The position numbers and the translations under genes are program-made. A stretch of 64,000 nucleotides of DNA, taken from the NCBI GenBank assembly GCA_030141605.1, contig JAQGDQ010000129.1, positions 318,781 to 382,780 of the forward strand, in the 5' to 3' direction. This DNA is from Tubiluchus corallicola. Its lineage: Eukaryota > Animalia > Priapulida. Shown here in pieces: positions 11,501-64,000 of the stretch. Position 1 is the first letter of the stretch. Each line of letters starts with the position of its first letter. Below the pieces are notes generated by a model that saw nothing but the letters and a program-made list of their open reading frames with translations, was not told the DNA's origin and did no database searches.

Positions 11501-12737
11501 TATTTGTTATTTGTTTTACTTTATTTGTTAAAAAGCTGGGGAAATTCAGTTATGAGGCAAAAAAAGATTCGCTATTGACATGCTTACAACCAGGCCGGTG
11601 TTGTGGTTGTGACGATTATGAAAATAGTGAAATGGAAATACTTGATACGAAGCAGTTAGGGATTCGAAATTTTTTAGATGAAAAGGTTGAGAGAAAGAAT
11701 ATGTACACGAAGAGCGTGTATATGTTAACAAATACGTGCTATATGTACGTGCTGCAGAAATTGGAGACATTTTGATTGTTCCAGATTGAATGAAAATCAT
11801 AAATTCAACTTCAAATTCAATCAACACCAACTTGTAATTGACCCTTAAATAATACACTATAATGCATATACATGTACAATGTATGCCATAACACCAAGGT
11901 ACCATTATAAGTATATTCAATTTTAAAATTCAATTTTAAGAATGGGGAGCGTGGGGAACGCCCAAATTATTATTACATACACCAAAAGAAGTGGCAACAG
12001 TCTTTCCATTATATCCGTCGTCAAAGATTCCTTTTCACTCATTTAGTGATTTTGTCAACTACTAATTTTTCTCCGAACCTTATCTGTTCATTTCCTGTTC
12101 TTTAACTTCTAGATACTCAACTGTTCTTCAATTTACAATTTTCAGCTGAATGTGTAGTTAAAGGATTGCCGTTAATTACGAGTAACCTGTCCGGATTTGG
12201 AAACTTTATGTCTGATCATGTGGGAAATCCGAAAGCATTTGGCATTTACATTGTAAATCGTACACACATCTCAGTTGAAGAATCAGTGCAGCAATTAGCC
12301 CAGGTGAGTGTCCCTCTGGCTTCATACATGAGAGCAAACCTGTTTAGATTTAAAGCTGTAATGTGTTGTAATATGCAAATAGTTTCTGGCCTTGCAGAAT
12401 TAGTACCTACATTTTTACAATTGACTACTCGTAAGACTATTTACAATAATTTAGAAGTAGTAAGCAAGTTAAAGCAACATGAAAGCCATTGTGACTGAGG
12501 CACGCAACGTATGTAAATCAAACAAACGCACGAAAATCTGAAGAAGCTGCTTTTCCACTGGAACTTCTACTTTCCGGGTAGCACCAATATGCTAACTAGA
12601 TAACTCCAACACGCACTAGTTTTAAATCAACCTGAATGCAACAAAAATCACCCAACTTTGTCCTATTCTCATCTAGTTATTTCTCATTTGACTTTTTTAA
12701 TCACCAATTTACACCAGTTGGTTTAGCTAAGTGCCAA

Positions 12738-12816
<79 letters not shown>

Positions 12817-16619: not shown

Positions 16620-45671
<29,052 letters not shown>

Positions 45672-45951: not shown

Positions 45952-48900
45952 ATGGATGGCTCTGATAGTTGGTAAAATTTAGATTTCTGTGGTTTAGTGG
46001 AAGAAGGGCGTAACCCACATTACGTTTGTTCTGAGAAAATCACATTGTTTTGTAACTGTGTTAAAAATTTGCAGATAAACTATCATTCTCATGACATAAT
46101 AATACTTGTTGATGTCAGAACCGTTATCCACACTAAGTAATGTCATGATCATGTTATTTGGAATTGCATCACTGATAATGACTCTAGTAGGGCACTACGG
46201 CTTCTAGTAAGCTTGGTAAATAATGACATAAAGCTTTAAGCCCCGCACAGACATGCAATTTTCAGTTGTGCAATTAAAAATTGCAGAATCTGTAAATAAC
46301 TAAAGTCGGTGAGGGCGCACCAACTAAAAACTGCAATCTGAGCTCATACTTTTAGTTGCACAACTGTTTGGTAATGTACTCTCTTCAATGAGAGCACGTA
46401 GACATGCAATTTTTAATTGTGCGACTTTTAATTAAAACATACTAGTTAAGCGAGAGAAAAAGCCAGTGTCTTATGAAGAGGCACTATTAACCATACAAAA
46501 GAGAGAAAAGAAAAACAAATTAATGACTATAAATCATTGTTTCTATTTCTGCTCCTATCTTTCAAGAAATTCAGTGACAAATTCAGAAAATGGAGATCAA
46601 AATATGAAGTTCTGAAATTGACAAGCTTACTTCAAACATGTCTCAGTGCAATGAACACATTTCTGCTGATACTGTTCTGACTGTGTCTTGTACTTACACC
46701 AGACAGAAGATTTACATCCTCCCCTGCATTAGAAGAATACAAAATTGAAGAACTTTAAATTGTGCAAAGTGTCTGGTGTGCTTAAGAGCCCCAAGTCATT
46801 ATAGAACTTGTAAGGTTGCCTTTTTAATATATGCTGGTTAATTATTGTGCGCAATATTTCCGGCGTCTCTTTTGACTTTTTGTGAATTAATAATGAACAA
46901 ATGCAAGCAACGCTTCAAGCTCTGTACTGCCAGTTGCACAACGCAAATTGCATGTCTGTGTGCCCGATTTTGGTATACTAGTAAAATTGCTTTAATTTTC
47001 AGTTGTGCAACTTTTACTTGTGCAATTGAGTGACTCAAGTGTCTAGTGTGCAATTTTTCAGTGACTCAATAAGAAAACGAATTCTGTACTTTCTAATATC
47101 TGTTCGACATTGTGGCTTAAATAATTTCATTTTGTATAACATGGTAAACTATAATTAGAATTTCGTTTCAAGTTATACTCATGGTGAGTTTAGTCATTAG
47201 TATATGAACTGTGCATGAGACTTGTTAAAGTGACAACCAGTGAATCCCAATAATTAACCAGAAGGCTTAGCAGAATTAGACACAGACTGAATAATTCCAT
47301 TCAGTCGTTGAAGCTCGAAATAAACATAATGTTTATTTCGAGCTTCAAACGTACAGTTACGCGAAGATGTAAAAAATTTGCACATGTAAAATAAAAAGAG
47401 GAAAGTATATATCAGAGTGGTTAAGGGAGTGCAAGAGTTAGGGGATCAAGACAGATACCATTTTCTGATTAATATAATGCAAACTATAGGCATCGCAAAA
47501 TTAATAAAAAACAAGTTAAATATAAGAAGACGATAATAAAAAACAGAGAAAAAGTTAAAGAAAAACTATATACTGAGTAGTGTGTAATTAGACCTACATA
47601 ACAAGAAAATATAGACATATATATTATAACACTTATAATTTCAAATTAGGTACTAATTAAAATTATGATACATTTGATCATTTATATAGGTGCACATATA
47701 TATATATATTGGCTTGTTACAGGCTTATGCTGAGATTCAAACATATACAATACGTGCATGCATGATATATCATATATACATACATACCTAGTTACTAGAT
47801 ACCTAATTACTAGCAAGTAGCAAGCATACACATGTGCAAGCATGAATTCTTGCCTGAATTCTGAGAATCTCGAATTATCGGTAAAGCAAAAGTACAAAAA
47901 ATCAAACAACACATTTAGTGTGCAATGCCAAGTATTTACTAGGCTAAATATGAGAAAGTATCCGAGTGTACATACTACCCAATAAAACTAGTTTAAAGCT
48001 AGTTTTCTCTCAAGAAATAATTATGCTCGCTTTAGTTTTGATTCAGGTACATATAGTTGTGCATAAAATTAGTGTATTTACTCATCTTAGTAATTTTGGG
48101 CCTATAGTAGGCTTAATACCTGTCAAGTCTCAGACATTGAGCATGCATCTCCAGTTACTGATCTTCAACTCACACGCAATTTTTGATTTTCTTCTTGTTT
48201 CAGGAACTGAAAGAGATATATGTGTATTCAGGGTACTTTGTATTCTGTTTAAATTTTAGTTAAAGGCTGAAAGTGTTGTGCTAATGGCTGAAGGAGCATT
48301 GCTTTACCTTGCTATTATAATTCTACTGCTGCTGTATTATTCTATTACAGTAGTATTACAATTTTTACACATGTTACACTGTTACTTATTCAATTTTTTT
48401 CTTTGGTACCATTTGGAAACATTTTCTGTCTTTTGTCTTGTCCTTTTCCAAACTGTTTTGCATAAAGCTTAACTGACATTCTAAATCCTGAAAAATGTAA
48501 TTTAATGTTAGCATTTAAATGAATTATTACCTTGCAAAATATTTTTCAGTCTCTTCAGTCTTCATTGGAGCACCTTCATTTCTTAAACCTAATTTAAGTA
48601 AGGGAACAGTGCTTCATGCAGAAACCAAATTGCACATCACTTGCTTAGAATACATCATCTCAAGCAAACTGATTAAGCCTATATATTTCTGTGGCTCTAA
48701 TATTGTTTGAAAACGTGTTGAAGAATTGAAGTTGGCTACCAAGGAAAACCCATAGGAACAGTAGAGGCAAAATGTATTTTTAGAATACGGCTATTGTGGT
48801 AATCTCACAGATTCGCTGCCCAAACCACCAGTATCTAATTTAATATTTACAAATAGGTCTAAGAGATTATATCTGTGGCTAAGTAAGTGATTCATTACTT

Positions 48901-50796
48901 CTATGTTAAGTTTACTAAGTTAACTCACATATTACTTTTATTAGCTGTGCACATTTGATTTGATAATTTTGCACATCTACCAGGGAATTAAAAGAAACGC
49001 AAATTTGACTTGACCACTGTGCATGTAACATAGATAGCATGTTACTCTGTTTGATGAAAACTGGGCACTCTTTGATTGTATAGTTTGTATTAAGTTTAAT
49101 ACAACCCTTGCATATTGAATTTAACTATGCAAAAAGTTACAACACTATAGGCATTAGTCTGCTTCTACATTTTGCGATCCAGATCATTCTGTAAATGTGG
49201 ATACATTGCACCATTAGAAGACATAGTTATTGTCCACATTTGATCATGGTAGTTTAAACAAGGTTTTGGGTAATTCTTGCTTATTTACTTTTGTGCTTTC
49301 ATTTTCATGTTGATACCTGTTCACTTTGTGTGGTTAATCTTCATTCTGTATGTCATATTTTGCACAATTATGTGTCCAGTTTTTTTTTCAGTATAATGTC
49401 AAGTTTTTTTTCTGTTTAGCACTACGTAATACTGCCACCTGTTATCAAATGCTTGAATTTCATTCATTTTTTCCTTTCTTATTCAGAAAGCTAAAGCAGT
49501 TTTGATAAAATATTCATTTATTTTGCTTAAATTAAATAATTTAGCTTAGTTTTGTTTATTGAAAGTTACAGCACAAAGTGCACATGGTTTTTGCAAATAC
49601 AAGTACGATATAAAATCAAATAGAAAATTAAATTTAGATGACATTACTATAAATAGGCTGGTAGATTCCTTTATTACTTAACTAATGCCTAACAGTTACC
49701 GTGATGTTACAATCAATTAATTATATGTCAGACTCACACAGGTTCACACAGCAGATGGTCCAGCCTTAATATAGCAGTGCCATCTAGTAGCAAAAAGTAT
49801 AACTTCAAAGTTTAATCCGGCTATATTCAAAAGTAAAGTTACTTTCTGTTACGTATACTTTTTGACATGTCCAAAATACATTAGAGCATTGTCTGAAATG
49901 TGTTTGACTTTTGCATTTGCTGCTTAGGCCCTTCTTACGTAATTAACGTGTATAAAACTTTTTCACTTATGAGTAAAATACTTTTTAAGTTAAGCATGAT
50001 TTTTGCTTTATTTTCAGGTTAATAAAGTATGAAGCATGTGAGCATTTGAGTCGTGAAATTATGCAAAACTTAGCAGAAAGGAACCAAAGCCAGAATGATA
50101 GTGCTAGATATACTCGGGTACATGTTTTTCTAAGTGAATGTTTTATTTTTTATCAAAAGTTATTTGGTCCCTGATGTTAGTTGCCATTTCTTTATCCTCT
50201 GATAGCTTATACATTATCTATGATAGTATTTTAGTAAATATAACTGCATGTAATCATATGAATGCATGAAACCAGTACCAAATTTGAAATTCTGAAAAAG
50301 TTTCTTCTTTCAACTGGGACCTGAAAGCAGGCTGTCTGCTGCACTAAGAATTTTGTAAATAATTAATTTTTTATGAAAATTTATATTTAATTTTGTCTTA
50401 ATGGGTAAGGTAAGTGTTTCAGAATCTATTGGGTTAACTATAATTTGTATAGGATAGCTTGATTGATGTGTTTATTAGTTGTAGGCAGAGGCTGATGTGT
50501 TTCAACTTGTAGCTTAGCTTGTAGCCTTATAATTTAATTTCTCCAATCTCACCGTTTTATTATAAGAATAGGTCATAAGAAGGAGGTGTTATTGACCATG
50601 AAACCTAACATTAGCTTGCCACTTTTTGTCTTTACCTTATGAATGTATTTTCACCATAATACTACTAGTATAAATATGAAAGCATTTTTTTATTTCAGTT
50701 ATCAGCAAATATTCGGCAGTCTCTCACAGTCTTCTCTGCTGATCTAAGTGCCTTACAAAATAGGCTACCTAGTACAACCTTTACTTCTAAAAATAT
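45952..50796 (+). CDS. STX8: Syntaxin-8 (Qc-SNARE), 5' part: exons 1-3; the remainder is presumably beyond the window
   Basis: Exons 45952-45971, 50018-50117 and 50699-50796 splice in frame to MDGSDSWLIKYEACEHLSREIMQNLAERNQSQNDSARYTRLSANIRQSLTVFSADLSALQNRLPSTTFTSKNI. This matches the STX8 N-terminal Habc pattern (D.W...Y..C..L..EI......RN). Exon sizes/phases (20/100/98; 2,0,2) resemble vertebrate STX8 as recalled. Confidence 0.8.
46240..46965. mobile_element. MITE, possibly PIF/Harbinger-derived, in STX8 intron 1
   Basis: Terminal inverted repeats gcacagacatgcaattttcagttgtgcaa (46245) and cagttgcacaacgcaaattgcatgtctgtgtgccc (46931-46965); additional TIR-like copies near 46395 and 46995-47065. 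Confidence 0.65.
47308..47348. repeat. Perfect 20-bp inverted repeat with 1-nt spacer
   Basis: ttgaagctcgaaataaacat-a-atgtttatttcgagcttcaa. Confidence 0.9.
50018..50117 (+). CDS. STX8: Syntaxin-8 exon 2
   Basis: ttttcag acceptor; LIKYEACEHLSREIMQNLAERNQ...; GT donor at 50118. Confidence 0.8.
50699..50796 (+). CDS. STX8: Syntaxin-8 exon 3
   Basis: tatttcag acceptor; LSANIRQSL...LSALQNRL...KNI; followed by a U12-type donor. Confidence 0.78.
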
Positions 50797-50806
50797 GTAT
50801 CCTTTT
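50797..50806 (+). other. U12-type (minor spliceosome) 5' splice site
   Basis: GTATCCTTTT is a perfect match to the RTATCCTTT consensus, placed exactly at the exon end. Confidence 0.8.
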
Positions 50807-51472
50807 TGATATTTTGGTTGTTCAGCCGTATGGCAGAGTTGCACATAGTTTTGGATGAGTTAACTTGCCTGACATTATAATGAAGGGTCATAAAATTACT
50901 GTTCTAGATTATTGCTTGCCATTCATCTGCTAGACATTTTTTCTAGGCTGTTGCCATCATATTTACACTTGCGGCAGCAAAACCAAGATAGACATGTTGA
51001 TAAATTGCATACACATTAGTAGATATTGTCAAGCCACAATTATTAGTTTTGATAGATTGTTAGTGTACAATTGCTCAATTAACAAGTATAATAATATTTC
51101 TAAATAATGTGCCCAAATTCAGTGACTAGAAGGTTTAAACTTGGAGAAATTGTTTGATGTGTGTGGTGGAATTAATGAAACATGACTATGCGTTTGTTTA
51201 CTTAAGGCAGTCTCAGATCCTCACATGTGATTGAAACTCGATTATACTGAAAAGTCAAGTAAACTAATAAAACAAACCCGTACACCTATGGTCATAATTA
51301 CTTTTATGGCTATAACTCAAACTCGGTTTTGACTGCTATGTGTTTTGCAAAGCCTTTACAAATAAACTATGGAGAAACATTTTTTTAAATTTAATTTCCT
51401 TGTTTTAGTGCACCAATAAATGAATATATATATATATATATATGCTTAACACATGCTTAATCTGTGCTTATG

Positions 51473-51754
51473 GTTTTGTAACTAATCAATCACTGCTCTA
51501 TTTGGGCCGTGGATGTGTGTATATCAGCCTCTAGTTTTCTCCAAGTGTCATATTTAATGAAATAAGAAAATTCTCATTCTTTCACGTACTAGTCCATTTC
51601 TCAGTTTTGGCTTGCATAATTTGGTTTTGCTTTTGTAACTAATCAATTACCGCACGTTACCTCTACTTTTTTCTAAGTGTCATAGTTAATGAAACAAAAA
51701 ATTCTCATTGTCTTACATTATACTAGTCCATTTCTCAGGATTGGCTTACATAAC
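51473..51754. repeat. Tandem duplication of ~130-150 bp downstream (3'UTR side) of cyclase gene 1
   Basis: ttttgtaactaatcaat...aagtgtcata...aaaattctcatt...tactagtccatttctcag occurs at 51473-51620 and 51629-51754. Confidence 0.8.
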
Positions 51755-51930
51755 TTTTAAGCATATTGCAAACTAACTAATGAATCTATACTAAACTTAA
51801 CCACATGAGATATCAGCTAAACGAGATGCTTGAAAACAAGTGACATAAATTTCTATAATAACTGTGCTACATTCTACAATATAATCATCAGATATTTAGT
51901 TTTTTTGCAAGCTTCAGTATGCTAGGAAAG

Positions 51931-52812
51931 TCACCACAATAACTGATAAGCTGCTGCGACAAGTGTCACTAATAGCATTGAAATTATGGGAGAAATAGAG
52001 TTTCCACTAGCAGCTGACATACGAACGTTAGTGTAAACATTATCTGTAACCGCAAACACCCTAGCAGGAGAGCCAGTACCATCCCTTATTTTCATTGGAA
52101 TGGCAAAGACTTTTGCTCCCGTTGGTGGCAGTTTGTCAAGATTGGCAACATTTTCCAGCACTGGTATGTCTTCAGAAAGCAGTGTGAGGTGTACATTAAA
52201 CCTCTGTGCTTTACCGTAATCTACTGATATGCAGTCCACTCCATACATTTTAATACGGCGTTGTTCTACCAACCAAGCTGCAGCATCTGGATGAAGTCCT
52301 GGATAGTGGAGTTCACTTTCTGTCCATTCAGCTGTGCTTCCTAAATAATTCAGCGCATTTGGCCAGTATCTATGCCATCCCGTGTTCAGAAAGAAAAAAC
52401 TGTGCCTTGGTATTTTGCCATATTCTCTTTCCCAATCTTTTATGTCATCTACAGTACATTGGTAATCCCTATTTCTTCTGGTTTTAGCAGTAATATCAAT
52501 ATTTACGGCTTCTCCGATCAGTTCGTCTAAGCCTAGCTCGTGAATACCTCGCAGCCCACGCACGCAATGCCTTGGCGCATCCATGTGTGTGCCCGTGTGC
52601 TCTCCCGTGCAAAAATTGTTTACTTCCCAGTAATTTCCATTTGGATCTCTTCCTTTCATGGCTCTAGTCAAGTTGAATGGCTTGATGAGATCTTTTGCTG
52701 GGAAGAAAACCATGTCGTCATTGGCATAGTCATAAGTCAAATCAATTATTGCTGCACTGCAACTGCAAACAACCATTGCAGCAAAGATGTGGCATATGAA
52801 TACATCATTCAT
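51931..52812 (-). CDS. Cyclase-family metal-dependent hydrolase (kynurenine formamidase KynB/isatin hydrolase-like), copy 1; signal peptide and GPI-like tail
   Basis: 293-aa intronless CDS; IIDLT, EHTGTHMDAPRH, LNTGW, HYPGL, GVDCISVD, VH..LL...IPVLENVANL, PMKIRDGTGSPARVFA; hydrophobic N- and C-termini. Confidence 0.93.
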   Translation of the reverse strand: MNDVFICHIFAAMVVCSCSAAIIDLTYDYANDDMVFFPAKDLIKPFNLTRAMKGRDPNGNYWEVNNFCTGEHTGTHMDAPRHCVRGLRGIHELGLDELIGEAVNIDITAKTRRNRDYQCTVDDIKDWEREYGKIPRHSFFFLNTGWHRYWPNALNYLGSTAEWTESELHYPGLHPDAAAWLVEQRRIKMYGVDCISVDYGKAQRFNVHLTLLSEDIPVLENVANLDKLPPTGAKVFAIPMKIRDGTGSPARVFAVTDNVYTNVRMSAASGNSISPIISMLLVTLVAAAYQLLW

Positions 52813-53309
52813 ACTTATTCTTTCTTTGTCGAAACCTGCAAAATATCAAGCGATAGTTGACTTTACAATTTATTAAAAAATATCAAAGTAAGTGTGACTG
52901 ATATGGTGCTGGATCTTTTTTATCAACTTTAGTTAATGCAAATGACGAATTTACTTAGCATTTTTACATACACTATAAACTTTTACACTGCAGCATGATT
53001 TCAAAGAATTTTTTGGGTTTTACAGCTGCTGTTTTATAATGTTTTAAAATGAAATGTTGTATTTTTACAAATAATTGCACCTTATATACATTTTTAAAAC
53101 GAACAAATGGAATTATTTGGCATGTACCTTAAACTTCACACTTGTCCACATTCTTTATTGTTAGCTTAATTATTTTTAGAAAACACAAATATGCTGAACA
53201 AACTACTTGAAAAATATGGCATGTGCATACTAATAAATGTTCTAAGACCTCTGAAACACAGTTTAAACACTAAATAAAATTATAGAAAACTGAACAGGGC
53301 TTGATTTAC

Positions 53310-53393
53310 CTGATATAATTATTGTGACTTGTATGAAGCATCATAGCAGATCACTTGTGCTGAGAAATTTCACTTGTTACAAAACTATATATA
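53310..53393 (-). promoter_or_regulatory. Putative TATA box and short non-coding first exon of cyclase copy 1
   Basis: TATATATA at 53386-53393, Inr-like TCAGCA ~25-30 nt downstream, CAG|GTAAAT donor at 53309, ttttgcag acceptor at 52836 just before the ATG. Confidence 0.45.
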
Positions 53394-54129
53394 GCAGTGG
53401 CAGATGACAGTTAAAAGTTTTTCTGTGCTGTTACACTGATTACAGCTAGGGACACTCGTTCAAAAATTCCTTATGGATCAATATGGTTAACAATTACTTA
53501 TACTTTTAGAACTATATTGACAACAACTGCTGCATAAAAAATTATGCCTACTGCCTGATGGTAGCTACTAGTGTATAGTTGAAGTATTGCTTTTTAAATA
53601 AATATTCTTTTGCTTGTTAAAAATTAATAACTACTGCCAGTAGCAGCAGACAGCAGTAAAGTCTAATAAAACTCTCATACCTGGCAAATGAGCAAAGATT
53701 CTAAAGAAAATACTCTGCAGAGGTTCAGCTTGGTTGTAAAAGCTTTCACTTTCAAATGCAACATGCCAGGGCCCAGAATTTGCAGTGGCAGCTAAACACA
53801 TGTGCCAAATGGTATCTATCTGTGCCTCTAAATATGCCTGCCTGTCCTGTACGTGTGGCATCTTGGCATTCAATCTGTCTGCTTAAGATTTTAACTTGTG
53901 ACAGAGTGGTTTAAGGCATCTGCTCTTGCCATGATTTTTTTAAGTGTATTTAATTTAATGTTATCAATAAGGAGAGAACTAATTACTCAAAGACAGTTAG
54001 GTGCTAATTCAGAACCATTTATAGGAATACAATAAACTTTTGTAAAGTCGATTAGGTATTTACAACAAGCCAAATATGTAATGAATAAACAGGCCTGTGG
54101 AAAATAAATAAATACAGTAACATATAGCT

Positions 54130-54750
54130 AAGTGTTTGAAAACACAGTTAAGGGAATTCAACTACTTCGCACATTAAGAGAAGGCTTATTATGGTACATA
54201 AATAAACTTTCTTTCCCAGTTATATGTAGCTCTGGTCACAATGCTGAAATTATTAAAAGCAGCTTTGTGGCCAGAGGCACAAATATGGTCATTAATACTA
54301 GATTGAGGAGAATTTTTTAATTTCTTGGTAGTTCTAGACGAAATACCCAGTTGTATTCACATATACTTACTTTAAAGTATCTGGACGTTTTGCCATGGTA
54401 CGCAGCATTGAAGCTGCTACATTGAAATCTATAAATAATACCAGACTGTAAGAGTGTGGGTATTTTATCTTTAAATGTGAAGAAAGAGCCTAAACTATTG
54501 CCACATTTTAACTCGAATGTGTAACTGAACTGAATATGGGGGTATAGTTGCTTAACGATTTTGTTTTTCACTTCCAAAGTCTGGTGACCAATAAACTGTA
54601 TGAGTAAATATACTATTTTTGGAAACAGACAGTATGGTGATTTTTTGGAAAAAACTTCATCAAGATATTTTTTGATGGTTAAGTCAATGAATCACATTAG
54701 AAATCTGTTAGAAATTTAATTTTTTTTATAGTATTAATGTTTTCATGGAA
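54130..54750 (-). mobile_element. Decayed Penelope-like retroelement fragment (RT thumb + GIY-YIG endonuclease)
   Basis: FFTFKDKIPTLLQSGIIYRFQCSSFNAAYHGKTSRYFKVSICEY, then SINDHICASGH...FNNFSIV and KESLFMYHNKPSLN...IPLTVF across frameshifts. Confidence 0.85.
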
Positions 54751-55609
54751 TTGTGATATTTTTGTTGATAAGTTATGAGTTATGATGATTTGTTATGATA
54801 AGTTTGTTTGTTGATGAAATATAAAAATACAAAATACAGTAGCTATCCGTTAATGTATCTATTTTTTTTCTACAGGTCTGTCTACTCATTAAGTATTTGA
54901 CTTCTTGTAAATACATAATTTTCTGTACTGTATGCTGTGCCTATAAAACTTGTTTGTTTGTTTGTATGTATAAGTCTATCACAGATGATTGCTGCAATTG
55001 ACAGTCGAAATATTTGGTGACATGTTTTTTAAACTTCTGTAAACTTATAGTTTTTTGTTTTTGTAGGACATATATATATATATTCTTGGCTTGATGATAT
55101 ATGTATAATGTCCTTTCTTTGCCATCATCATCAATAGTGATGCAGTCTGCATGATTTAGAAAGAAGTCAAGAGACCAAAATGTTTGGTAAGTTAACTTTG
55201 TTCGATTGTTTGCATTAAACCTCAATATCATAATCACTGATCAATCAGGGTAACTCAGTAATTACAAAGTGAGACCTAACTTAGCCAGTTCTCAGAATCT
55301 CAGAGTGAGAAGTGAAGAATGAAGGACCTTGATGTTTTCCTGGGTTATTTTGCTTAACAGATTCTGCCAGAGCTATCAACATTAATAGACTTATGTTGTG
55401 TGCTGGTTACCAGCTTACATAACAGATGTGCTGGTTGTTATTAAAAATATGTAACAGAAAGAGTTGTTATTTTTAATGACAAGCTGTTGGACACTACCTT
55501 TATTCAGAAAACTACGTTTGAATCCAATTTAGCTACATACTTGTTTATGCGGTGCGGTGTAATTAATTGCAAACAGATTAGTGTAGGTATAATGATTATG
55601 CATCAGAAA

Positions 55610-55780
55610 CAGGGGCAGAACTAGGGGGAGCGAGGGGGGCGCATGCCCCCCTGTCAAAATTTGCGCCCCCCCTGCAAAATCGGACGAATAATTTTTTTTT
55701 GCAGTGAAAATTGCAGTTCGCATGTAATCATTTTCAATATGAATTAGAATTAGGTAAAAAAATGTTCGCTACGCCGTCCT
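55610..55780. mobile_element. GC-rich DNA-transposon/MITE end abutting the truncated cyclase pseudogene
   Basis: caggggcagaactagggggagcgaggggggcgcatgcccccc...gcgccccccc resembles common invertebrate non-autonomous element termini; no matching other end found. Confidence 0.45.
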
Positions 55781-55794
55781 ACACACATGATAAT

Positions 55795-56170
55795 TATATC
55801 ATTCACGGTGCATTGGTAATCCCTATTTCTCTGTGTTTTAGCAGTAATGTCTATGTTTACGGATTCTCCAATCAGTTCATCTAACTCAGATCGTTAAAAC
55901 CCTGTGATCCACGTATTAAATATCGTGGAGCATCCATTTGAGTTGAGTTCCAGTATGTTCACCTCTACAGAAATTTTTCATTTCCCATTCAGCTCCATTG
56001 GGATCATTTCTTTTTATGGATTTTGTAATATTAAATGCATTCACTAGTTGTTCGTCTGGATGAAACACCATTGCATCATTGGCATAATCATAGCTCAGAT
56101 CAATTATCTCTCCACTGCAGATGCGCATACAGAGGCTAAGCATAAAGGTAAAGCCCTGCACTGTCTTCAT
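55795..56170 (-). pseudogene. Cyclase-family pseudogene (copy 2), frameshifted and 3'-truncated
   Basis: Signal peptide + EIIDLSYDYANDAMVF...GEHTGT, then a 5-nt duplication (ctcaa), MDAPRY, a 1-nt deletion and LDELIGESVNIDITAKTQRNRDYQCTVNDI, after which homology stops; very close to copy 1. Confidence 0.85.
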
Positions 56171-58573
56171 GTTTCTGTTCTGGTAAGCTCTGCAAATTAA
56201 ATATTTTATAAACTTATTTTCTCCAGTTACGCATCAGTCAATACTTTTAATTTAGCAGCTATATTTATTTGTGGATAGATTTATTTATTTATATAATATG
56301 CTACTTTTTCTGCAACTACTGAACGATTTGTCACAAATGACGTATCAAACCAACTATCTCATTTTCTCCCAGTCCCTTTAGGTGGTTTGTTTTTCGACTT
56401 CGGTCATCTGGAAAGAACAACGGGCAAAAATCTCCATAAATCGGCATTTTACTCCGATTGTTTGCAAAATTTTTAAAACAGATCTGAAGAATGGAATCAC
56501 GAGAGACTATACAATAACATTTAAAAGAGCTTTTAGCATAGCGTGTGTATGCTAATGTGTATGTATACCATATAATTTGGTTTCCTTGGGAGCAGCAGTA
56601 AGCATTTTTCTGGAAACACCTAACCAATTTTTTTTTAAAATACGTGCAGACAGCCTCTAGTAAAAAATCGATTGTTGAAATTGTTATTGGACAACTCCCA
56701 GAAAGAGGTCAAAATGGTCCAGCTAAAGTGTGACTATTTCATTTAGAGCTATGCCCACTTAAAGAAATGAGGAGGAAGTATTTCAGAGCTCTTTTTCAAC
56801 CTCCCCGGCAATGGTGGTTTTGTCTGGGTAGTGCTGGTGTGTTGCGGGTGTCGGTGATATGGTATCACTGGTATGTGTTTGGGTTTTATTCATTAACTTT
56901 GTTCTTTTCTTGCCCTGTCTTTGATTTGTGTATTGCAGTGATATCTCTTTAAAAAGTGTAAAGTTATTGCTTTTCAACTTGACTGCTCTAACCCAAGATT
57001 ATATTTTTTGTTAATTATATGAGCTAATTCGATTTTTATACGAGACTGAAATTGGTCATGCTTGAGTCTTTTGTTCAAAATTATTTCATTTTTGTCCTTT
57101 GCAAACAACAAAATTCCTGGATGAAATGTTTATCACAATATGCTTTTTGCATCATTCGTTAACCAACCAAATTTGAGTATAACTGGATTAAGAGCACAGA
57201 AATTATTTTATCTCTTTTGTTTGATTAATAACAATAACAGATCTGTTTGGGGGATAGCCAAATGGAAACAATGTGTGCTTATCAGCCAAAGTTTAGCAAT
57301 ACTGAACCTCATCACTGATGGGCGCCCTCCGTGTTCGATTCTCGCTGTAATGCGCTTTCACGTGGGTATGGACATACCACCATATAGATATACAATCAGT
57401 GTCACCCTGAAGGAATCAATCTGAAATCACTAAATACCAAAGAAAAAAGTTAATTTATGGAAAGAAAGATGTGTTAAAAATTGAAATTGAGCCTAGATAT
57501 TAATTAAACAAGAAGCTTGCATCAAATGTTAAACATAAAATACGTCTAGGTCAGCTAGACATAAGAAAAAGTTATGCTTCATCCTGCAAACTGTGACAAC
57601 CATTGATTTGATTAAAACAAATTTCGGCTCAGTACCGTTGCATTATCAAATAAGAAGGATATTTACCACACTTAACAACAAATAGCTATATATATATACT
57701 TAAAAAATAGACTTACCTTAAATTGTCTTTTTCTGTCGTCTCACCATTGTCAAATTTACGTGTTTTAGCTCGCTAATTTTGCCTAGGTAGAAACCACCTG
57801 ACTGTCAAAAACACTGCAGTTAGTACATGTGCAACATCATTAGGACAGACATTTGCTGAGTCATTTACATTTACGCGCAGCTATTTTAATATGTTAAAAT
57901 CCGACACGGTTTTGTGGTCCTTGTTATTTTTCAAGCAAGCGCCACACTTGTTCTTGCAAGGTTTTCAAAAATATGTTTTTATAAATGTTCCACTCATGTT
58001 TCGTCCCCCTTAGAGTGTTGACCAAATTCATTACGTTTTTTTAATTTTGAGACGTTGGCAATGTGGCAATTTTTAATTTTAATTACATATTAGGTCTTTT
58101 ATCTAATAACATGTTCGCATATTTGCAAGTTCTTTTTCTTTTTGCACAGTTTTCTACACTACACACGACTGCCACGAGCTTTATAGGTTAACGTTATATT
58201 AAAATTACTACTTAGTGATAGTAATATTGTGCAGCAAAAGGAGTTTGTATTTTGACGTTTTGGCTACCTAATAGTCACTATCTTAGCTGTCTAATAATAA
58301 CTCCAAGTTAACAGGATTATCACAAAAATGTTTATTTTTACACAATATAACATTTAGTACGGTATTAAAAACACCCAAATTAAGGTGCCACATCAATATT
58401 GCTTTCATTCTCTAGGATTCTGTTGAAATGTAACATTCACAAAATACAGTCATTTCACAATAACTAAAACGCTACCTTCTATGGAGAATATTAATGTCTA
58501 AGTTCATAAAAACACTGATTTATTACAAGGGAAAATATAAACAATGCATGGTCGGTCGTATGATTGTCGGTAT

Positions 58574-59455
58574 TTATAAGAATAGAGTTGCTAGAGCAGC
58601 CAAGAACACGATGGCTGTGCACACATGTCTGCTTTTCATGGCTTCATTTTTAATGGCAAACAGTCTTGTTGGAGCACCAGTGCCGCCTTTTATATACATT
58701 GGAATAGCGAAAACCTTGGTTCCTGTTGGGGGCATATTGTCCAAATTTGCAACGTTCTCCAGCAGCGGGATGTTCTTGCGCAGAAGTACCTTATGAACTG
58801 GGAAAGTTTTTGACTGCCCGTAGTCATTAGAGACCGTGTCTACGCCGTAAAGCTTAATGTTACGCTCTTCAAGCAACCATTTAGCTGTATCAGCATGTAA
58901 GCCAGGGAAGTGCATTTCGGTCCACATGTCACCGCCTTTCTTCATTCCTAGGTACTTCTCTTCATCTTGGAAGTGCCGATGCCATCCTGTATTTAGTAAG
59001 AAGAGAGCGCCATCGGGAATTTGGCCATGGTTGGTTTCCCATTCTTTCATGTCTAGCACTGTGGCTTGGTAATCGGGATCTTCCTTGGCCTTCTCAGAAA
59101 TGTCAACAACCACTCCTGGTCCAATGACACTTTCTAGCTTGATTTGTTCAATTGGACGACCATTTATAACAAAATGGATGGGTGCATCCATGTGTGTTCC
59201 CGCGTGTTCTGTAGTTTCAAAGTTATTTGATTCAACGTAGACATTGTATGGTCCTGCGGCACCTTTATGTGCTCGGCTGAGGTTGTAGCGAAAGAGGCCA
59301 GGCCAGAAGGTCATTCCGGTGTTGGAATACTGGTGTGTTAAATCAATCACTTCATCATCTTCCATGTCGTCGGTTGATTTTTCTTCCTTTTCGCAAAGGG
59401 CAGGAATGACATTTGCGCTTAGCAAACCAATGAATAGCAATAATTTTAGTGCCAT
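58574..59455 (-). CDS. Cyclase-family metal-dependent hydrolase (KynB/isatin hydrolase-like), copy 3; signal peptide and GPI-like tail
   Basis: 293-aa intronless CDS; EHAGTHMDAPIHF, LLNTGW, HFPGL, GVDTVSND, VHKVLL..NIPLLENVANL, GGTGAPTRLFA; splice acceptor at 59459-59460 just before the ATG. Confidence 0.93.
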   Translation of the reverse strand: MALKLLLFIGLLSANVIPALCEKEEKSTDDMEDDEVIDLTHQYSNTGMTFWPGLFRYNLSRAHKGAAGPYNVYVESNNFETTEHAGTHMDAPIHFVINGRPIEQIKLESVIGPGVVVDISEKAKEDPDYQATVLDMKEWETNHGQIPDGALFLLNTGWHRHFQDEEKYLGMKKGGDMWTEMHFPGLHADTAKWLLEERNIKLYGVDTVSNDYGQSKTFPVHKVLLRKNIPLLENVANLDNMPPTGTKVFAIPMYIKGGTGAPTRLFAIKNEAMKSRHVCTAIVFLAALATLFL

Positions 59456-59574
59456 TTCCTGAAAATCAACAAAACAACGAACAGTGAATTGACAATGACA
59501 TATTTTTTACACGCTGGAAAAAAACGTGTTGGTAGTACGGCTTGCATTGCAGTGTGCACTTATTGCATATAACT

Positions 59575-59720
59575 GGATGGCGTAACTCAATGGTAGCGTG
59601 CTCGCTTCCACCTGGGTGGTCTCGGGTTCAACTAATGATCGAGCCATACCAAAGACAAAAAATGGTACAGCTGGTTCTTCGATCAAGCAAGCGGGTTTAT
59701 CGAAATGCAGCTCGGTGTAA
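59575..59720 (+). mobile_element. tRNA-derived SINE
   Basis: A-box-like TAACTCAATGGTAG and B-box-like GGGTTCAACT, then a gccataccaaagac-aaaaaatggtac core of the kind seen in invertebrate SINE2 families; no intact cloverleaf. Confidence 0.65.
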
Positions 59721-62700
59721 AATGCAGGTAACAAGTATATAAGTATTGAGTTACTTAAGGTGTTATCAGCTCGGTACAACAATTTGGGTCATACAAAACC
59801 AGGTCAGACCAACAAAAAGCAATAATTTTATCAAGTGACACTTAGTAAATCTTTACTATTGTTAGTTTGTTATCCATACAAAATTGGCTTCATGCAAAAG
59901 TTGTGTGCACGCCAGTTTTGTGCGGGCGGTTAGCGTCATACAGTTTGCTGCATACACATTTTTTGCAGTGTGAAACTAGTGTATAAGGCTTCTTAAAATT
60001 TACGAGCATTTCTTTTGAAGCTGTAAACCGTAGACGGTAATGATTACGTGCAAACAGCGTTTGACAAAGCTCATGTAACCATCGCCTGTAGTGTTTTAGT
60101 ATATTTGTGATAACATAACTGCATTTATAAATTCTTTGTCACCTGGCTATTTTGTTCTTTACAATTAGACTTTATAACAGTTTCTATCATGACGCTTACT
60201 AGAGGCTCAGTAAAACTAACAAATTAAAGTAATTATTCTGAAAAAACGTATTCATTTTTGCACTGTGGTTACCGAGAACCGTTAAACCAACTGGTTAGCT
60301 TTAATGGGCCTTTACAAATCTATTTTACTTCTGCCTACGATACGGACCAGCACGGATTTGCCCTGTCAGCGCTATCACAGTGTGCAATTTAAAAACGGAT
60401 CTAGAATTTCTGTTTTATTTATCTTTCAAAGAACTGCCCATTAAAAACAATTTCAGAACACAATGTGCGCTTTTAATTTTTGTGACTTTATTGAAAATGC
60501 ATTGGACTAATTATAAACTGGACTCGGTTTCTCCGCTTGTACATTTTTGCAGCGTTGGCTGGATGCAAGCGTTCGTGCAAAGCTTGCACGATATTATTTC
60601 GGGCACTTTGAGTTCTTTACGACGATAACATTTACTTATAACTTGAAGTTTATTTAAAAAAATATATAAGTGAGCAGTAAGATGTAAAGAGGAAAATGAA
60701 AAGTGAAAATCTTTCGTCCTATAGGTATAGCTATCTGCCGTTCATATTGAGTGTTTTGCCACGCCCGTTTTATGCACTGCCGATAACCTGCCATACGACA
60801 TGGGTGCGCATTTTAATTTTTAATCCGCGTTATTCACCAAACCTTAAAAATCGTTTTTAGGTAATAAAAGCAGTTAAACAGTAAAAAAACTAAAAGCATC
60901 ACTCACCGTTTTTTTCATGCAATCGTTTCCTGCAGCAGATACTAAGCAGCTGAAGACTATCCTATAAGATAAGTTATTACAAATCACGCACCTAATCCAC
61001 GTATCGTGTCCAATTCCCAGCAGTAATGTCAATAGTTTTACATTGGGCGCATCCACCGCGTCATTCAACCGTGCACATCATATGCATGGGCAGGCTGGCA
61101 TCCACAATCTCACTCTGGCTACTTAACTGCTTTGGCATAGGCTAATAGGCTTGTGTATACCCACAGTCTGCTTATTCTCGTTTTGAAATGTCCTTGTCAA
61201 ACATTCTGGAATCTTACTGCAAACTCTGCGTGCTCTGTCAGTGTGGCCCGAATGCAGTAAAAATAGAAAAAAATTATCCCAGTTTGCGCCTGGCAGGAAT
61301 GTGTTGTGGGCATTTTCAAGTTCCAAGTTTTTTGGAATTTTAAGTATGGCTGTGCTCTGCAAGCAGGAGTCTTGCAGAAAGTGTTCCAACTTATTTATTC
61401 ATTAATTTTGTTCTTCGTTGTACTTGCCGTTCACCATTAATTTTAAAATCGGTGCCGAGTTGAAATTTGGCCTATTGGTAGAGGGATGCCCAGGTCTTGT
61501 GCAATTTATAAAAATCGGGTCAACGATGAGGATCAGCGGTCACTGGCGACTGTTGGCCTTAGAAAATTTTCGATCGCGCAAAAAAGTCGAGGCCCCGTGA
61601 AACCAAGGCTTTAACAGTTCGAGAAAGAATTTTGGTTTAACAATTTGATGCAGGCACATTTGAATTCAGGTATAGGTGAGTGAGGTTACTCAAGGTTAGA
61701 ATGCACCCTGTAACTTGATCGTGATCGTAGGCTGGCTGGAGATTTGGCATGCATGTGACTGCTGGCAATAAAAGTTTGCACTTAACACTTCCATTACAAA
61801 TTTACAATGTACAGTACAACAGAAAAGTTCCCAAAACGAGAGAACAGAATTTGTTGTTCTGTCAAAGAAGCTTCTCAAGTTTACCACAATGACCAAAGAG
61901 CGTTCATTTTTCGTAAGAATTGTCCGAGCAAGTATGATCTCGATTGCTGTATACACACCTATCAAAAGAGTCGATCTAAATTTACTCTATTTTGTAGACG
62001 CGACCCTATGTGTTGTTTGTTAGATTTGATTTTTATGACTTTGCTTCAGTTTTTTGATTAAAATTTGTCACGCTATCCACGTTGCTTAACAAAACTCTGC
62101 TAGTAATAAAGTATTCTAGTGCATGTCAACGGGGAGGTTAGTTTGAACGTACTTGGTTTAACAAGATGCCTATCCAGGCAAATTTGACTATAACAGTTAT
62201 TTCTCTAACTATTATAAAATGAGACGCACTAAATAAAAACAAAACTGTAGTCGGTAACTTTGTGTAGTAATATATTACTGTCTTAGCTTGAATTCGCGTG
62301 AGGCCAAATTCAGTACAGACTTTCGTGCTTCGTTTCCGCTTAACACCCTCCTAACTACGATCATTTTCCCAAATGTTACTGCTTAACTTGTGGTCGGTCA
62401 AACGTTTGTACCACATTTGGGACTTGCTGACTGGTCGAGCTTGGTTTTAAATTATTTATAACTTATAAATAGTATACCACTAAGCATGCAGCGCTGAGTA
62501 CTATGTCCCTGTTAAATTTACTGCTGTCAGTTGCGTGCCTTTCTCCACTCTGAACATGCCTTGATTTCATTGGCAGTTGTTCAGCGTTGTCATCAATGTC
62601 AAGACGTTGAAGTGTCTGGCCATGTGTGAATGTTGGTCTTAGCTGTAAGGTTAGCACCAAATCCCCGCCAATTTTCCTGCTACACTGCCTAGAGTTTAAT

Positions 62701-63334
62701 GTGAAGTTCTGAATCTGTTGCAGCAAAAGCATTTCTGTCATAGTCTGCTTTACAAACTTATGATGTAATTTTAAATACAGATTGGGCTATTAAGTTCATC
62801 CTTCAAACCAAACTTGATACATATTAAAAATCTACTAGTGTTTAAACATGCATAGAAATTCCGGTAATTTTAATGTCATGTTTAATCAAAATGAAGCTAA
62901 AAAAATTCAATTTAAAAATGTTATTTTGTTACCCTTTTTACCATTCTACGTGTAATATTTTTCAAGGCTTGTTTCGCAAGCTTTAGAAACAGAGGTTGAG
63001 ATTTACAATTCATGGTTAGAAAATTGCTTTCTTTTTTAACATAGTAATGCTTACCAAAGTCATTTTCATTTAGTGATGGTTTTACATTTTTTATTTAAAG
63101 TCTAATTCCAAATTGCAAAACCCAGGTGAAAACCAAATTGCAAAACTGCTAACATGATTACCTATGGCAAGTAGCACCTCCAAATTATTACTTACAAATA
63201 CTGTACATATGTGCATCTATATACTGCACTAGCATCTATATAGCCTTCACAAGCCACATTTTTTTGGAACTACTTTTCTAAACCTTAAAGAGACTAATTG
63301 AAAGCACTAATAATGCTTTTTAAAATGTAATTAA

Positions 63335-63741
63335 CTATACAAACAGGTAGGCAAGAAACATAAAAATTACAAGCATGAGAGCCATGTTAAGGTGAATTAA
63401 GGTGACACTGCCATTTACCACAGCAAAGACCCTTACTGGTGCACCAGAACCGTCCTTAATTTTCATGGGTATTGCAAAGACAGTGCTACCCGTTGGTGGC
63501 ATCTCATCTAGATTTGCTAAGAAATCTATGATTCCGATACTGTGGTGTGCCTGAATTCTATAGTGAACTCTAAATGTTTGATCTGAGCCAGGGTCCAATC
63601 CCATATCAGATCCAAATAGCTTGATCTTTCGTTCTTCAATTAACCACTTCACAGCTTCAATGTCTATCCCTGGGTAGTGCATCTTGCCTCTTCTGTCTAT
63701 TCCAAAGTAAACCTTTGGGTCATCCCAATATCTGTGTCTTC
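63335..63741 (-). CDS. Cyclase-family hydrolase copy 4, last coding exon (upstream exon outside the window)
   Basis: ttacag acceptor at 63742-63743, then (G)RHRYWDDPKVYFG...MHYPGID..AVKWLIEERKIKLFGSD...VH...LANLDEMPPTG...PMKIKDGSGAPVRVFA + hydrophobic tail; in-frame stop upstream of the acceptor. Confidence 0.85.
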
Positions 63742-64000
63742 CTGTAAGTTAAAAATAGTTCATGTGTCATCAAATGAAGGTTTCATGACATCACAGTGAC
63801 TAGCATAGAAATGTGTTTTTGTAAGAGGAGAATATGGATATAAAACCTTATATATTGTTATTGCTATGTATGCTAGTACATTGCAAGGGTTTTCTATACA
63901 TGCATACCCGAATGGTCTCATCAGACGAAGTACCTCAGTATCGATAAATTTTTGTAAGCATTACTGTAGCAAATTTCTTTACAGTCATCATTAGCCTTGG

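What the first reader, a model, noticed from the sequence alone, without database searches (positions are those of the whole stretch)
50797..64000. A tandem gene array apparently nested antisense inside a >13-kb U12-type intron of syntaxin-8
Seen: STX8 exon 3 ends at 50796 with a perfect minor-spliceosome donor (GTATCCTTTT). I found no U12 branch point/acceptor leading into the expected next STX8 exon before the window ends, while four cyclase-family loci lie on the opposite strand in that span. Established: U12 introns are rare, slowly spliced and often rate-limiting. Inference: a birth-and-death gene cluster has expanded inside a minor intron of a housekeeping SNARE gene, so host splicing and antisense cluster transcription may be coupled. 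STX8 is entirely absent from the ORF track.
Basis: partly seen in the sequence, partly recalled or inferred. Interest (0 to 1): 0.8.

Follow-up and report, generated by a model that had tools for sequence, protein, structure and literature searches.

The report
Enzyme cluster inside syntaxin-8 minor intron
In a marine invertebrate, the first three exons of a likely syntaxin-8 gene end at a rare minor-spliceosome splice signal and are followed by four opposite-strand hydrolase gene copies (one broken) that likely sit inside that intron, which is a known kind of gene-within-gene layout in an intron that is also about 12 kb long in humans, with no sign yet that the two regulate each other.

Summary
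The sequence observations hold. Three exons (45952-45971, 50018-50117, 50699-50796) form an open frame resembling Qc-SNARE N-termini and end at AT|GTATCCTTTTT. A related organism's contigs join exons 1-2-3, and another record keeps the donor. Human and mouse STX8 have a catalogued minor intron with the same AT|GTATCC junction, 12,151 and 11,235 nt long, so >13 kb is unremarkable. Four antisense PF04199 (isatin-hydrolase-like) loci follow: two intact, one frameshifted and truncated but intact in a relative, one cut by the window end. I found no convincing exon 4 or SNARE exon in the window. Exons 1-3 look constrained, so nesting is likely (about 0.75) but unproven: no genome and no exon 3-4 junction were available. 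The paralogues are old (45-62% identical), not a recent expansion. Coupling is untested; the one hint is a relative's spliced record that reads into intron 3. Opposite-strand nesting, including paralogue clusters, is well known; my searches found no described cluster inside a U12 intron. The scan had no note on this locus or an STX8 case like it, only related notes on long minor introns. Modest interest.

The parts
45952..45971 (+). STX8-like exon 1, coding part (20 nt, ends in phase 2)
   Evidence: joint 45970->50017 with GT..AG ends in run X2; 7 of 7 residues identical in P0122
50018..50117 (+). STX8-like exon 2 (100 nt), predicted first Habc helix
   Evidence: X2 contig with 8 other letters in 97 and a loose end reading into exon 3; 28 of 33 residues identical in P0122
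50699..50796 (+). STX8-like exon 3 (98 nt, ends in phase 2), predicted second Habc helix and loop
   Evidence: 27 of 33 residues identical in P0122; helices 5-33 and 36-62 in the P0122 model
50797..50809 (+). U12-type 5' splice site GTATCCTTTTT; if unspliced, an in-frame TGA at 50807-50809 ends a 76-aa product
   Evidence: same AT|GTATCC junction as human and mouse STX8
50797..64000 (+). Inferred STX8 intron 3, at least 13,204 nt if exon 4 lies beyond the window
   Evidence: inference (no downstream exon recognised; constraint on exons 1-3)
51266..51420 (+). Three AATAAA hexamers (51266, 51361, 51415) between the donor and the cycA stop; candidate intronic polyadenylation signals, unremarkable in 68% A+T DNA
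   Evidence: use untested
51931..52812 (-). cycA: intact single-coding-exon PF04199 gene, 293 aa, hydrophobic N- and C-termini, all metal ligands present; acceptor of an inferred 5' UTR intron before 52835
   Evidence: 86% identical to P0008; covered by X2 contigs
55795..56170 (-). cycB: pseudogene; 5-nt insertion and 1-nt deletion relative to cycA, and the 3' half is missing below 55795
   Evidence: 79% identical over 73 aa to intact 280-aa P0005
55600..55790 (.). High-copy repeat next to the cycB truncation point (limits approximate)
   Evidence: X1 summed depth up to about 1,900 at 55692, with loose ends at 55693-55798
58574..59455 (-). cycC: intact single-coding-exon PF04199 gene, 293 aa, all metal ligands present; acceptor before 59458
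   Evidence: one X2 contig
63335..63741 (-). cycD: last coding exon (about 135 aa) of a divergent intron-containing paralogue; Asp where others have the metal-bridging Glu; its 5' part is not in the window

Best explanation
Three exons of a likely syntaxin-8 gene end at a U12-type donor and four cyclase-family hydrolase loci follow on the opposite strand; they likely lie inside STX8's ancient minor intron 3, whose branch point and exon 4 would be beyond the window. Shown: exon frame, donor, splicing of introns 1 and 2 in relatives, the four loci, cycB decay. Inferred: U11 pairs with the donor, U12 recognises a branch point more than 13 kb away, and the whole antisense array is excised in the lariat; opposite orientation keeps the array's own splice and poly(A) signals out of the STX8 pre-mRNA, so the array can be tolerated, duplicate and decay as a passenger. 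The array's proteins are predicted to be secreted, C-terminally anchored metal-dependent amide hydrolases. Some STX8 transcripts likely keep intron 3 and hit the stop 11 nt in, as is common for minor introns; regulation by the array is not needed to explain anything seen.
For: Open 20/100/98-nt frame ending in phase 2. Exon 1-2 joint and exon 2-3 loose end in X2. P0122 top three Atlas clusters all carry PF09177 STX6_10_61_N in some members (14%, 68%, 99%; scores 0.91-0.93). Human and mouse STX8 minor introns: GAT|GTATCCATG, 12,151 and 11,235 nt, whereas STX6 and STX10 start AT; mouse Stx8 intron responds to U11 loss in 3 of 6 datasets. Constraint: 8 differences in 97 nt of exon 2 against 22 expected from cycA synonymous divergence, P about 1e-4; P0122 62 of 73 identical against a simulated neutral maximum of 53 of 72. 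A constrained two-helix stump makes little sense without the rest of the gene. No SNARE or syntaxin family in 234 of 234 + strand and 105 of 105 - strand segments. 71% of Drosophila nested genes are antisense (PMC3814207 passages).
Against: Exon 4 was never seen: no genome, and X2 does not cover exon 3 or anything after it on STX8. The Pfam scan is insensitive for this region: the exon 2 and exon 3 frames and P0122 themselves hit no syntaxin family, and I had no positive control for SNARE exons. No named STX8 was aligned (searches found none). The only record that passes exon 3 (P0122) reads into the intron, not into exon 4. The constraint test assumes X2's cycA contig is the orthologue and that P0122's source is about as distant as X2, and only sequences at least 80% alike are laid.
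Confidence: 0.75

Rival explanations
1. STX8 is broken at intron 3 here (rearrangement, partial duplicate or mis-join). The cyclase array is an ordinary convergent neighbour, and the working STX8 lies elsewhere.
For: No downstream exon found in 13.2 kb. The array is old, so it may have arrived as a block by rearrangement. No X1 piece spans the stretch and X1 has no cover in 50671-51337 (a hole proves nothing).
Against: Exons 1-3 are open, spliced in relatives and apparently constrained. Intron 1 is already 4,046 nt and the orthologous intron is 11-12 kb in mammals.
Confidence: 0.1
2. The main product of this promoter ends inside intron 3: transcripts are polyadenylated at 51266-51420 or stopped by convergent cycA transcription, giving a 76-aa two-helix peptide or a decay target. 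Full-length STX8 is minor or made another way.
For: P0122 comes from a 986-nt contig with exons 1-3 joined that runs on into intron 3. Three AATAAA lie 470-620 nt into the intron and about 500 nt from the cycA stop. Precedents: PTEN minor-intron premature polyadenylation (PMC13141466 abstract) and H13/Mcts2 (PMC13309782 abstract).
Against: One contig of unknown depth and library, whose DNA I could not read. Retention is the usual minor-intron by-product (PMC8329584 passages). AATAAA is frequent in DNA this A+T-rich. A U12 donor kept perfect in two organisms argues that it is used.
Confidence: 0.08
3. Exon 4 lies inside the window and is too diverged to recognise, best candidate 61815-61931. 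The intron would be 11.0 kb and would hold cycA, cycB and cycC but not cycD.
For: First AG after a CTTAAC, 117 nt to a GTATGA donor in phase 2, close to the human exon 4 size (111 nt, recalled).
Against: The branch motif is 28 nt upstream against an optimum of 11-13 (PMC6717393 passage). The 39-aa peptide has 2 Pro and 3 Cys and lacks the ExxRR motif that I recall for this helix. It is 1 of 13 chance-level candidates, and X2 does not cover it.
Confidence: 0.07

Closest known systems
Minor intron of human and mouse STX8 (PMC6717393 supplements, files 1 and 8; PMC11347168 Table S6 row)
   Same: GT-starting U12-type donor after an exon ending in AT; length class 11-13 kb; same early position in the gene by exon sizes (human sizes recalled).
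   Different: The donor here is closer to consensus (GTATCCTTT against GTATCCATG). The supplement rows say nothing of nested genes in the mammalian intron; I did not check mammalian annotation for them.
Opposite-nested protein-coding genes: NF1 with OMG/EVI2A/EVI2B, MOB2 with six KRTAP5 paralogues (PMC4394429 passages); 567 pairs in C. elegans (PMC12274878 passages); about 10% of Drosophila genes, 71% antisense (PMC3814207 passages)
   Same: Several independent genes, including a paralogue cluster, on the other strand inside a large, early host intron.
   Different: The host intron here is U12-type, which these passages do not describe; nesting here is inferred, not closed by a downstream exon.
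Intronic termination at PTEN's minor intron (PMC13141466 abstract) and at H13/Mcts2 (PMC13309782 abstract)
   Same: A retained minor intron, or a nested gene's transcription, can end the host transcript in the intron; P0122 shows a matching retained form.
   Different: Those cases are measured; here no 3' end, level or dependence is shown.
Cyclase family PF04199: isatin hydrolases (5NMP, 5NNA, 5NNB, 4J0N), C-PTE (8F9X), KynB kynurenine formamidases; Priapulus caudatus 'kynurenine formamidase-like' proteins
   Same: E 3e-38 to 8F9X and 6e-37 to 5NMP. Ligand spacing H0/H4/D6/H10 and H...E(+12) matches C-PTE H92/H96/D98/H102/H224/E236. 43-54% identical to Priapulus paralogues.
   Different: Hydrophobic C-terminal tail (shared with Priapulus proteins, absent in bacterial P0009); substrate unknown; cycD has Asp at the bridging Glu. 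The Priapulus paralogues P0002-P0004, P0006 and P0007 are on contigs of five different lengths, with three records sharing one contig length.

Membership tests
U12-type (minor) intron | 5' splice site RTATCCTT at an exon end | tested here: met
   kept in P0122's source at the protein level
U12-type (minor) intron | U12 branch point shortly before the 3' splice site | not testable with these tools
   3' end not in the window and no genome held
U12-type (minor) intron | Excision by the minor spliceosome | not testable with these tools
   no junction reads; the mouse orthologue responds to U11 loss in 3 of 6 datasets and is classed 'minor-like'
Syntaxin-8 (Qc-SNARE) | N-terminal Habc helices related to STX6/8/10 | tested here: inconclusive
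   Atlas top three clusters are STX6_10_61_N-type and the model has two helices, but Pfam gave no syntaxin hit and the fold search gave only generic coiled coils, Z at most 5.6
Syntaxin-8 (Qc-SNARE) | STX8-type minor intron junction (xAT|GTATCC), as against AT-starting STX6/STX10 | tested here: met
Syntaxin-8 (Qc-SNARE) | SNARE motif and C-terminal membrane anchor | not testable with these tools
   not recognised in 50797-64000; expected beyond the window
Opposite-nested genes | Host exons on both sides of the inner genes | not testable with these tools
   upstream exons shown; downstream exon not located
Opposite-nested genes | Inner genes on the other strand with their own frames, both partners transcribed | tested here: inconclusive
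   strand and frames shown; X2 has contigs for STX8 exons 1-2, cycA and cycC, but it is a relative at about 87-95% and 'RNA' is the tool's guess
Cyclase family PF04199 | Pfam score above the curated cut-off | tested here: met
   cycA 137.5, cycC 146.1, cycD 24.3 bits against 23.1; cycB fragment 13.4, below
Cyclase family PF04199 | Metal ligands HxxxHxD plus distal His and Glu | tested here: met
   cycA and cycC; cycD has Asp for Glu and its N-terminal ligands are outside the window
Cyclase family PF04199 | Amide or ester hydrolase activity and substrate | not testable with these tools
   needs an assay
Birth-and-death tandem array | Adjacent same-strand paralogues with a pseudogene whose orthologue survives elsewhere | tested here: met
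   (cycB with P0005, 100/96 support)
Birth-and-death tandem array | Recent expansion in place (high identity, all copies one clade) | tested here: not met
   45-54% identity for A-C, A-D, C-D and 62% over 58 aa for A-B; only A+B group with strong support, C and D placement weak (49/48)

The most novel reading that the evidence does not exclude
An old cluster of cell-surface hydrolase genes sits inside the conserved minor intron of syntaxin-8 and acts as its switch: when the cluster is transcribed, converging polymerases and the slow U11/U12 step end STX8 transcripts at intronic poly(A) sites, lowering full-length syntaxin-8 and making a 76-residue two-helix fragment. It would be a natural case of a protein-coding gene array regulating a housekeeping SNARE through a U12 intron.
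Probability: 0.08. Interest if true: 0.65.

Novelty: new member of a known kind. Interest (0 to 1): 0.3.

Why it matters
If nesting is confirmed, it extends the STX8 minor intron to a priapulid-like lineage and gives an example of a whole paralogue array, with gains and losses, carried in a U12 intron. That would show that minor-intron recognition tolerates active antisense genes across more than 13 kb. It is a useful annotation fact and a natural test bed for interference between antisense transcription and minor splicing, but each part (long minor introns, antisense nested clusters, retained minor introns) is already known, and the animal is not an experimental model. It would matter more only if coupling were measured.

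Tried and rejected
No whole genome held, so the downstream scaffold could not be searched. Full-length STX8 relatives: none from the exon 2 frame or P0122 (176 candidates, none at E 10 or less); the representatives search returned only P0122. JGI metagenomes: nothing for P0122 (0 of 355 stretches); 9 loci for cycA at 26-43% identity, none with an STX8-like match. Sequencing runs: no RNA holder listed; X2 gave no record on exon 3 or later at 85% or 80% (5 loose ends and 2 records not shown), which is no evidence of absence. Fold search of the P0122 model: generic coiled coils only. The Atlas comparison of the exon-4 candidate with exon 3 as control was not obtained, so that test is open. A fifth cyclase relic near 61.0 kb (look-alike of the IDITA motif) was rejected: no profile hit and 53-145 of 200 random regions scored as high. 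STX8 exons flipped to the minus strand: no family hit in 105 of 105 segments of 27 aa or more, and recalled SNARE motifs gave 2 unrelated matches in six frames. Rfam: 0 matches in the window. Idea that the synapsin intron holding TIMP is a U12 precedent: SYN1-3 absent from the minor-intron table. Literature searches listed no paper on a gene cluster in a U12 intron, and search 47 none on animal members of this cyclase group; the library lacks most subscription papers. I sent no complex prediction, since no binding claim is made.
Full report
Setting. The window is animal DNA of about 35% G+C. The best named single-domain matches of cycC are Priapulus caudatus proteins at 43-54%, in line with unchecked scan notes calling this genome priapulid-like. 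No assembly is held, so nothing beyond base 64000 could be read.

The host gene. Three exons, 45952-45971, 50018-50117 and 50699-50796 (20, 100 and 98 nt), join into an open frame ending in phase 2 at AT|GTATCCTTTTT. Introns 1 and 2 are ordinary GT-AG introns of 4,046 and 581 nt. Run X2 (a relative; 'RNA' is the tool's guess) has a contig that skips 45970 to 50017 with GT..AG ends and whose loose end reads into the start of exon 3. The only hit among 1.84 billion representatives to exon 2 was P0122, a 79-aa Logan protein from a 986-nt contig. It matches exons 1-3 at 62 of 73 residues and then continues with the residues that the donor itself encodes: introns 1 and 2 removed, intron 3 entered. 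The Atlas's three best clusters for P0122 carry PF09177 STX6_10_61_N in 14%, 68% and 99% of members. Its single-sequence model has two helices (pLDDT 71.5, pTM 0.36), but the fold search was uninformative and Pfam gave no syntaxin hit. The STX8 label rests on the junction: in the supplements of PMC6717393 (rows read) human and mouse STX8 have GAT|GTATCCATG, while STX6 and STX10 minor introns start with AT. The exon sizes also fit human STX8 (17/100/95, recalled, from no call). No named STX8 was aligned.

The donor. As a 9-mer it is chance-level in 64 kb (0.65 expected). At an exon end, conserved in a relative and at the junction catalogued in mammals, it is real. The mouse intron is classed 'minor-like' and responds to U11 loss in 3 of 6 datasets (PMC11347168, one supplement row). 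The human and mouse introns are 12,151 and 11,235 nt. In the one part of nine of that table that I read, 8 human minor introns are longer than 13.2 kb (counted by eye). Minor-intron length tracks genome and major-intron length (PMC7367187 and PMC10639083 passages). The length is therefore not a surprise.

Search for exon 4. No CCTTAAC occurs on the + strand after the donor. Of 680 AG sites, 47 have a branch-like motif with at most one mismatch 8-44 nt upstream and 13 stay open for 60 nt in phase 2. None gives a convincing helix; the best, 61815-61931, is kept as a weak rival. Nine TCCTTAAC-like sites with at most one mismatch lead to no plausible exon. Pfam found no SNARE or syntaxin family in 234 of 234 + strand segments of 20 aa or more or 105 of 105 - strand segments of 27 aa or more. 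These scans are weak for exon 4, since exons 2 and 3 escape them too, and I had no positive control for SNARE exons.

Is the gene alive? From the differences that one search lists, cycA's core has 11 synonymous changes in 47.7 sites (0.23) and 9 non-synonymous in 144.3 (0.06). Exon 2 shows 8 changes in 97 nt against 22 expected if neutral (P about 1e-4), and neutral drift at 0.23 gave at most 53 of 72 identical residues in 2,000 trials against 62 of 73 seen in P0122. Against this: of the 4 exon-2 changes listed individually, 2 alter the protein; only 27 of that contig's 37 cycA differences were shown; and the comparison assumes orthology and similar distances. Constraint on exons 1-3 is the main reason to expect exons 4-8 downstream.

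The array. cycA (51931-52812) and cycC (58574-59455) are intact 293-aa genes with hydrophobic ends; cycD has only its last exon in the window (63335-63741); cycB (55795-56170) has two frameshifts and lacks its 3' half beside a high-copy repeat. cycA and cycC keep the ligand pattern of C-PTE/isatin hydrolase (PDB matches; PMC12135135 passages; alignment). 'Cyclase' is only the Pfam name; the characterised relatives are metal-dependent hydrolases. In a 32-row tree (4 window rows, 6 Priapulus, 2 Logan, 2 halves of one Branchiostoma protein, 18 others chosen from the 120 listed hits) cycA pairs with P0008 and cycB with the intact P0005; A and B form one clade (98/95); C and D are placed weakly, and all four fall with four Priapulus proteins in a set of ten (100/100). 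So one loss is shown and one duplication (A/B) post-dates the split from Priapulus, but the array is old, and whether it grew inside the intron or arrived there is unknown.

How it likely works. The STX8 pre-mRNA carries the antisense of the array and loses it when the minor spliceosome removes intron 3. Opposite orientation is the common, tolerated state of nested genes (71% in Drosophila, attributed to selection against mis-splicing; PMC3814207 passages). Nested genes prefer large, early introns and 95% of human hosts hold up to four (PMC11694760 section 5). C. elegans has 567 opposite-nested pairs (PMC12274878 passages). MOB2 holds six KRTAP5 paralogues and NF1 three antisense genes (PMC4394429 passages). 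Unspliced transcripts stop 11 nt into the intron. P0122 shows that such a form exists in a relative; retention is the usual outcome of slow minor splicing (PMC8329584 passages), though long minor introns were retained less than short ones in mouse (PMC6717393 passages). Coupling is possible by precedent (abstracts of PMC13141466 and PMC13309782) but nothing here measures it.

Novelty. Paper searches listed no description of a protein-coding cluster inside a U12 intron, and term look-ups in PMC11694760 (no 'minor' or 'U12'), PMC2831892 and PMC3291851 (no 'nested') found none. This is weak evidence, as most subscription papers and large intron databases are not covered. The scan's notes had nothing near this locus or like cycC; they do hold a 20.7-kb octopus STX6 minor intron, a long POLA2 minor intron linked to nested microRNA control and a nested gene elsewhere in this genome (unchecked). 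Verdict: a real, conserved minor-intron donor and a real old antisense hydrolase array, likely nested (0.75); a new member of known kinds; interest 0.3.

Noticed in passing
window 45177-45671 (-) and 45952 (+): A Fringe-like gene (PF02434) starts head-to-head with STX8, start codons about 280 nt apart, suggesting a shared bidirectional promoter. X2 has a contig on it with 8 of 9 listed changes synonymous.
   Followed up: partly
window about 3381-14589 (+): Multi-exon glycogen synthase gene (PF05693 in four ORFs); a 256-aa open frame at 13819-14589 with no Pfam hit may be its long last exon.
   Followed up: no
P0122 (Logan, 986-nt contig): Spliced exons 1-3 running into the minor intron: a retained or intron-terminated STX8 form in a relative. 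The contig's DNA could not be read.
   Followed up: partly
window 63335-63741 (-): cycD has a coding intron that cycA and cycC lack, a long tree branch and Asp for the metal-bridging Glu; it may have altered or no activity.
   Followed up: partly
window 52835, 56189, 59458 (-); candidate donors 53309 or 53680, 57716, 60906: cycA, cycB and cycC each have an acceptor just before the start codon, so a shared 5' UTR intron is likely; this points to DNA-level duplication within the array.
   Followed up: partly
window 57662 (-): An ATATCCTTC motif (AT-AC-type U12 donor look-alike) on the minus strand near the inferred cycB first exon; probably chance.
   Followed up: no
window 46250-46980, 54090-54690, 55600-55790, 59600-59930: High-depth X1 contigs with many joints mark interspersed repeats; 54317-54691 (-) is a 124-aa frame with a weak DUF6650 hit (E 0.004), likely a transposon remnant.
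   Followed up: no
window 51528-51756; 309-553: A 98-nt direct duplication (83%) just past the cycA stop, and a 245-nt imperfect palindrome near the window start.
   Followed up: no
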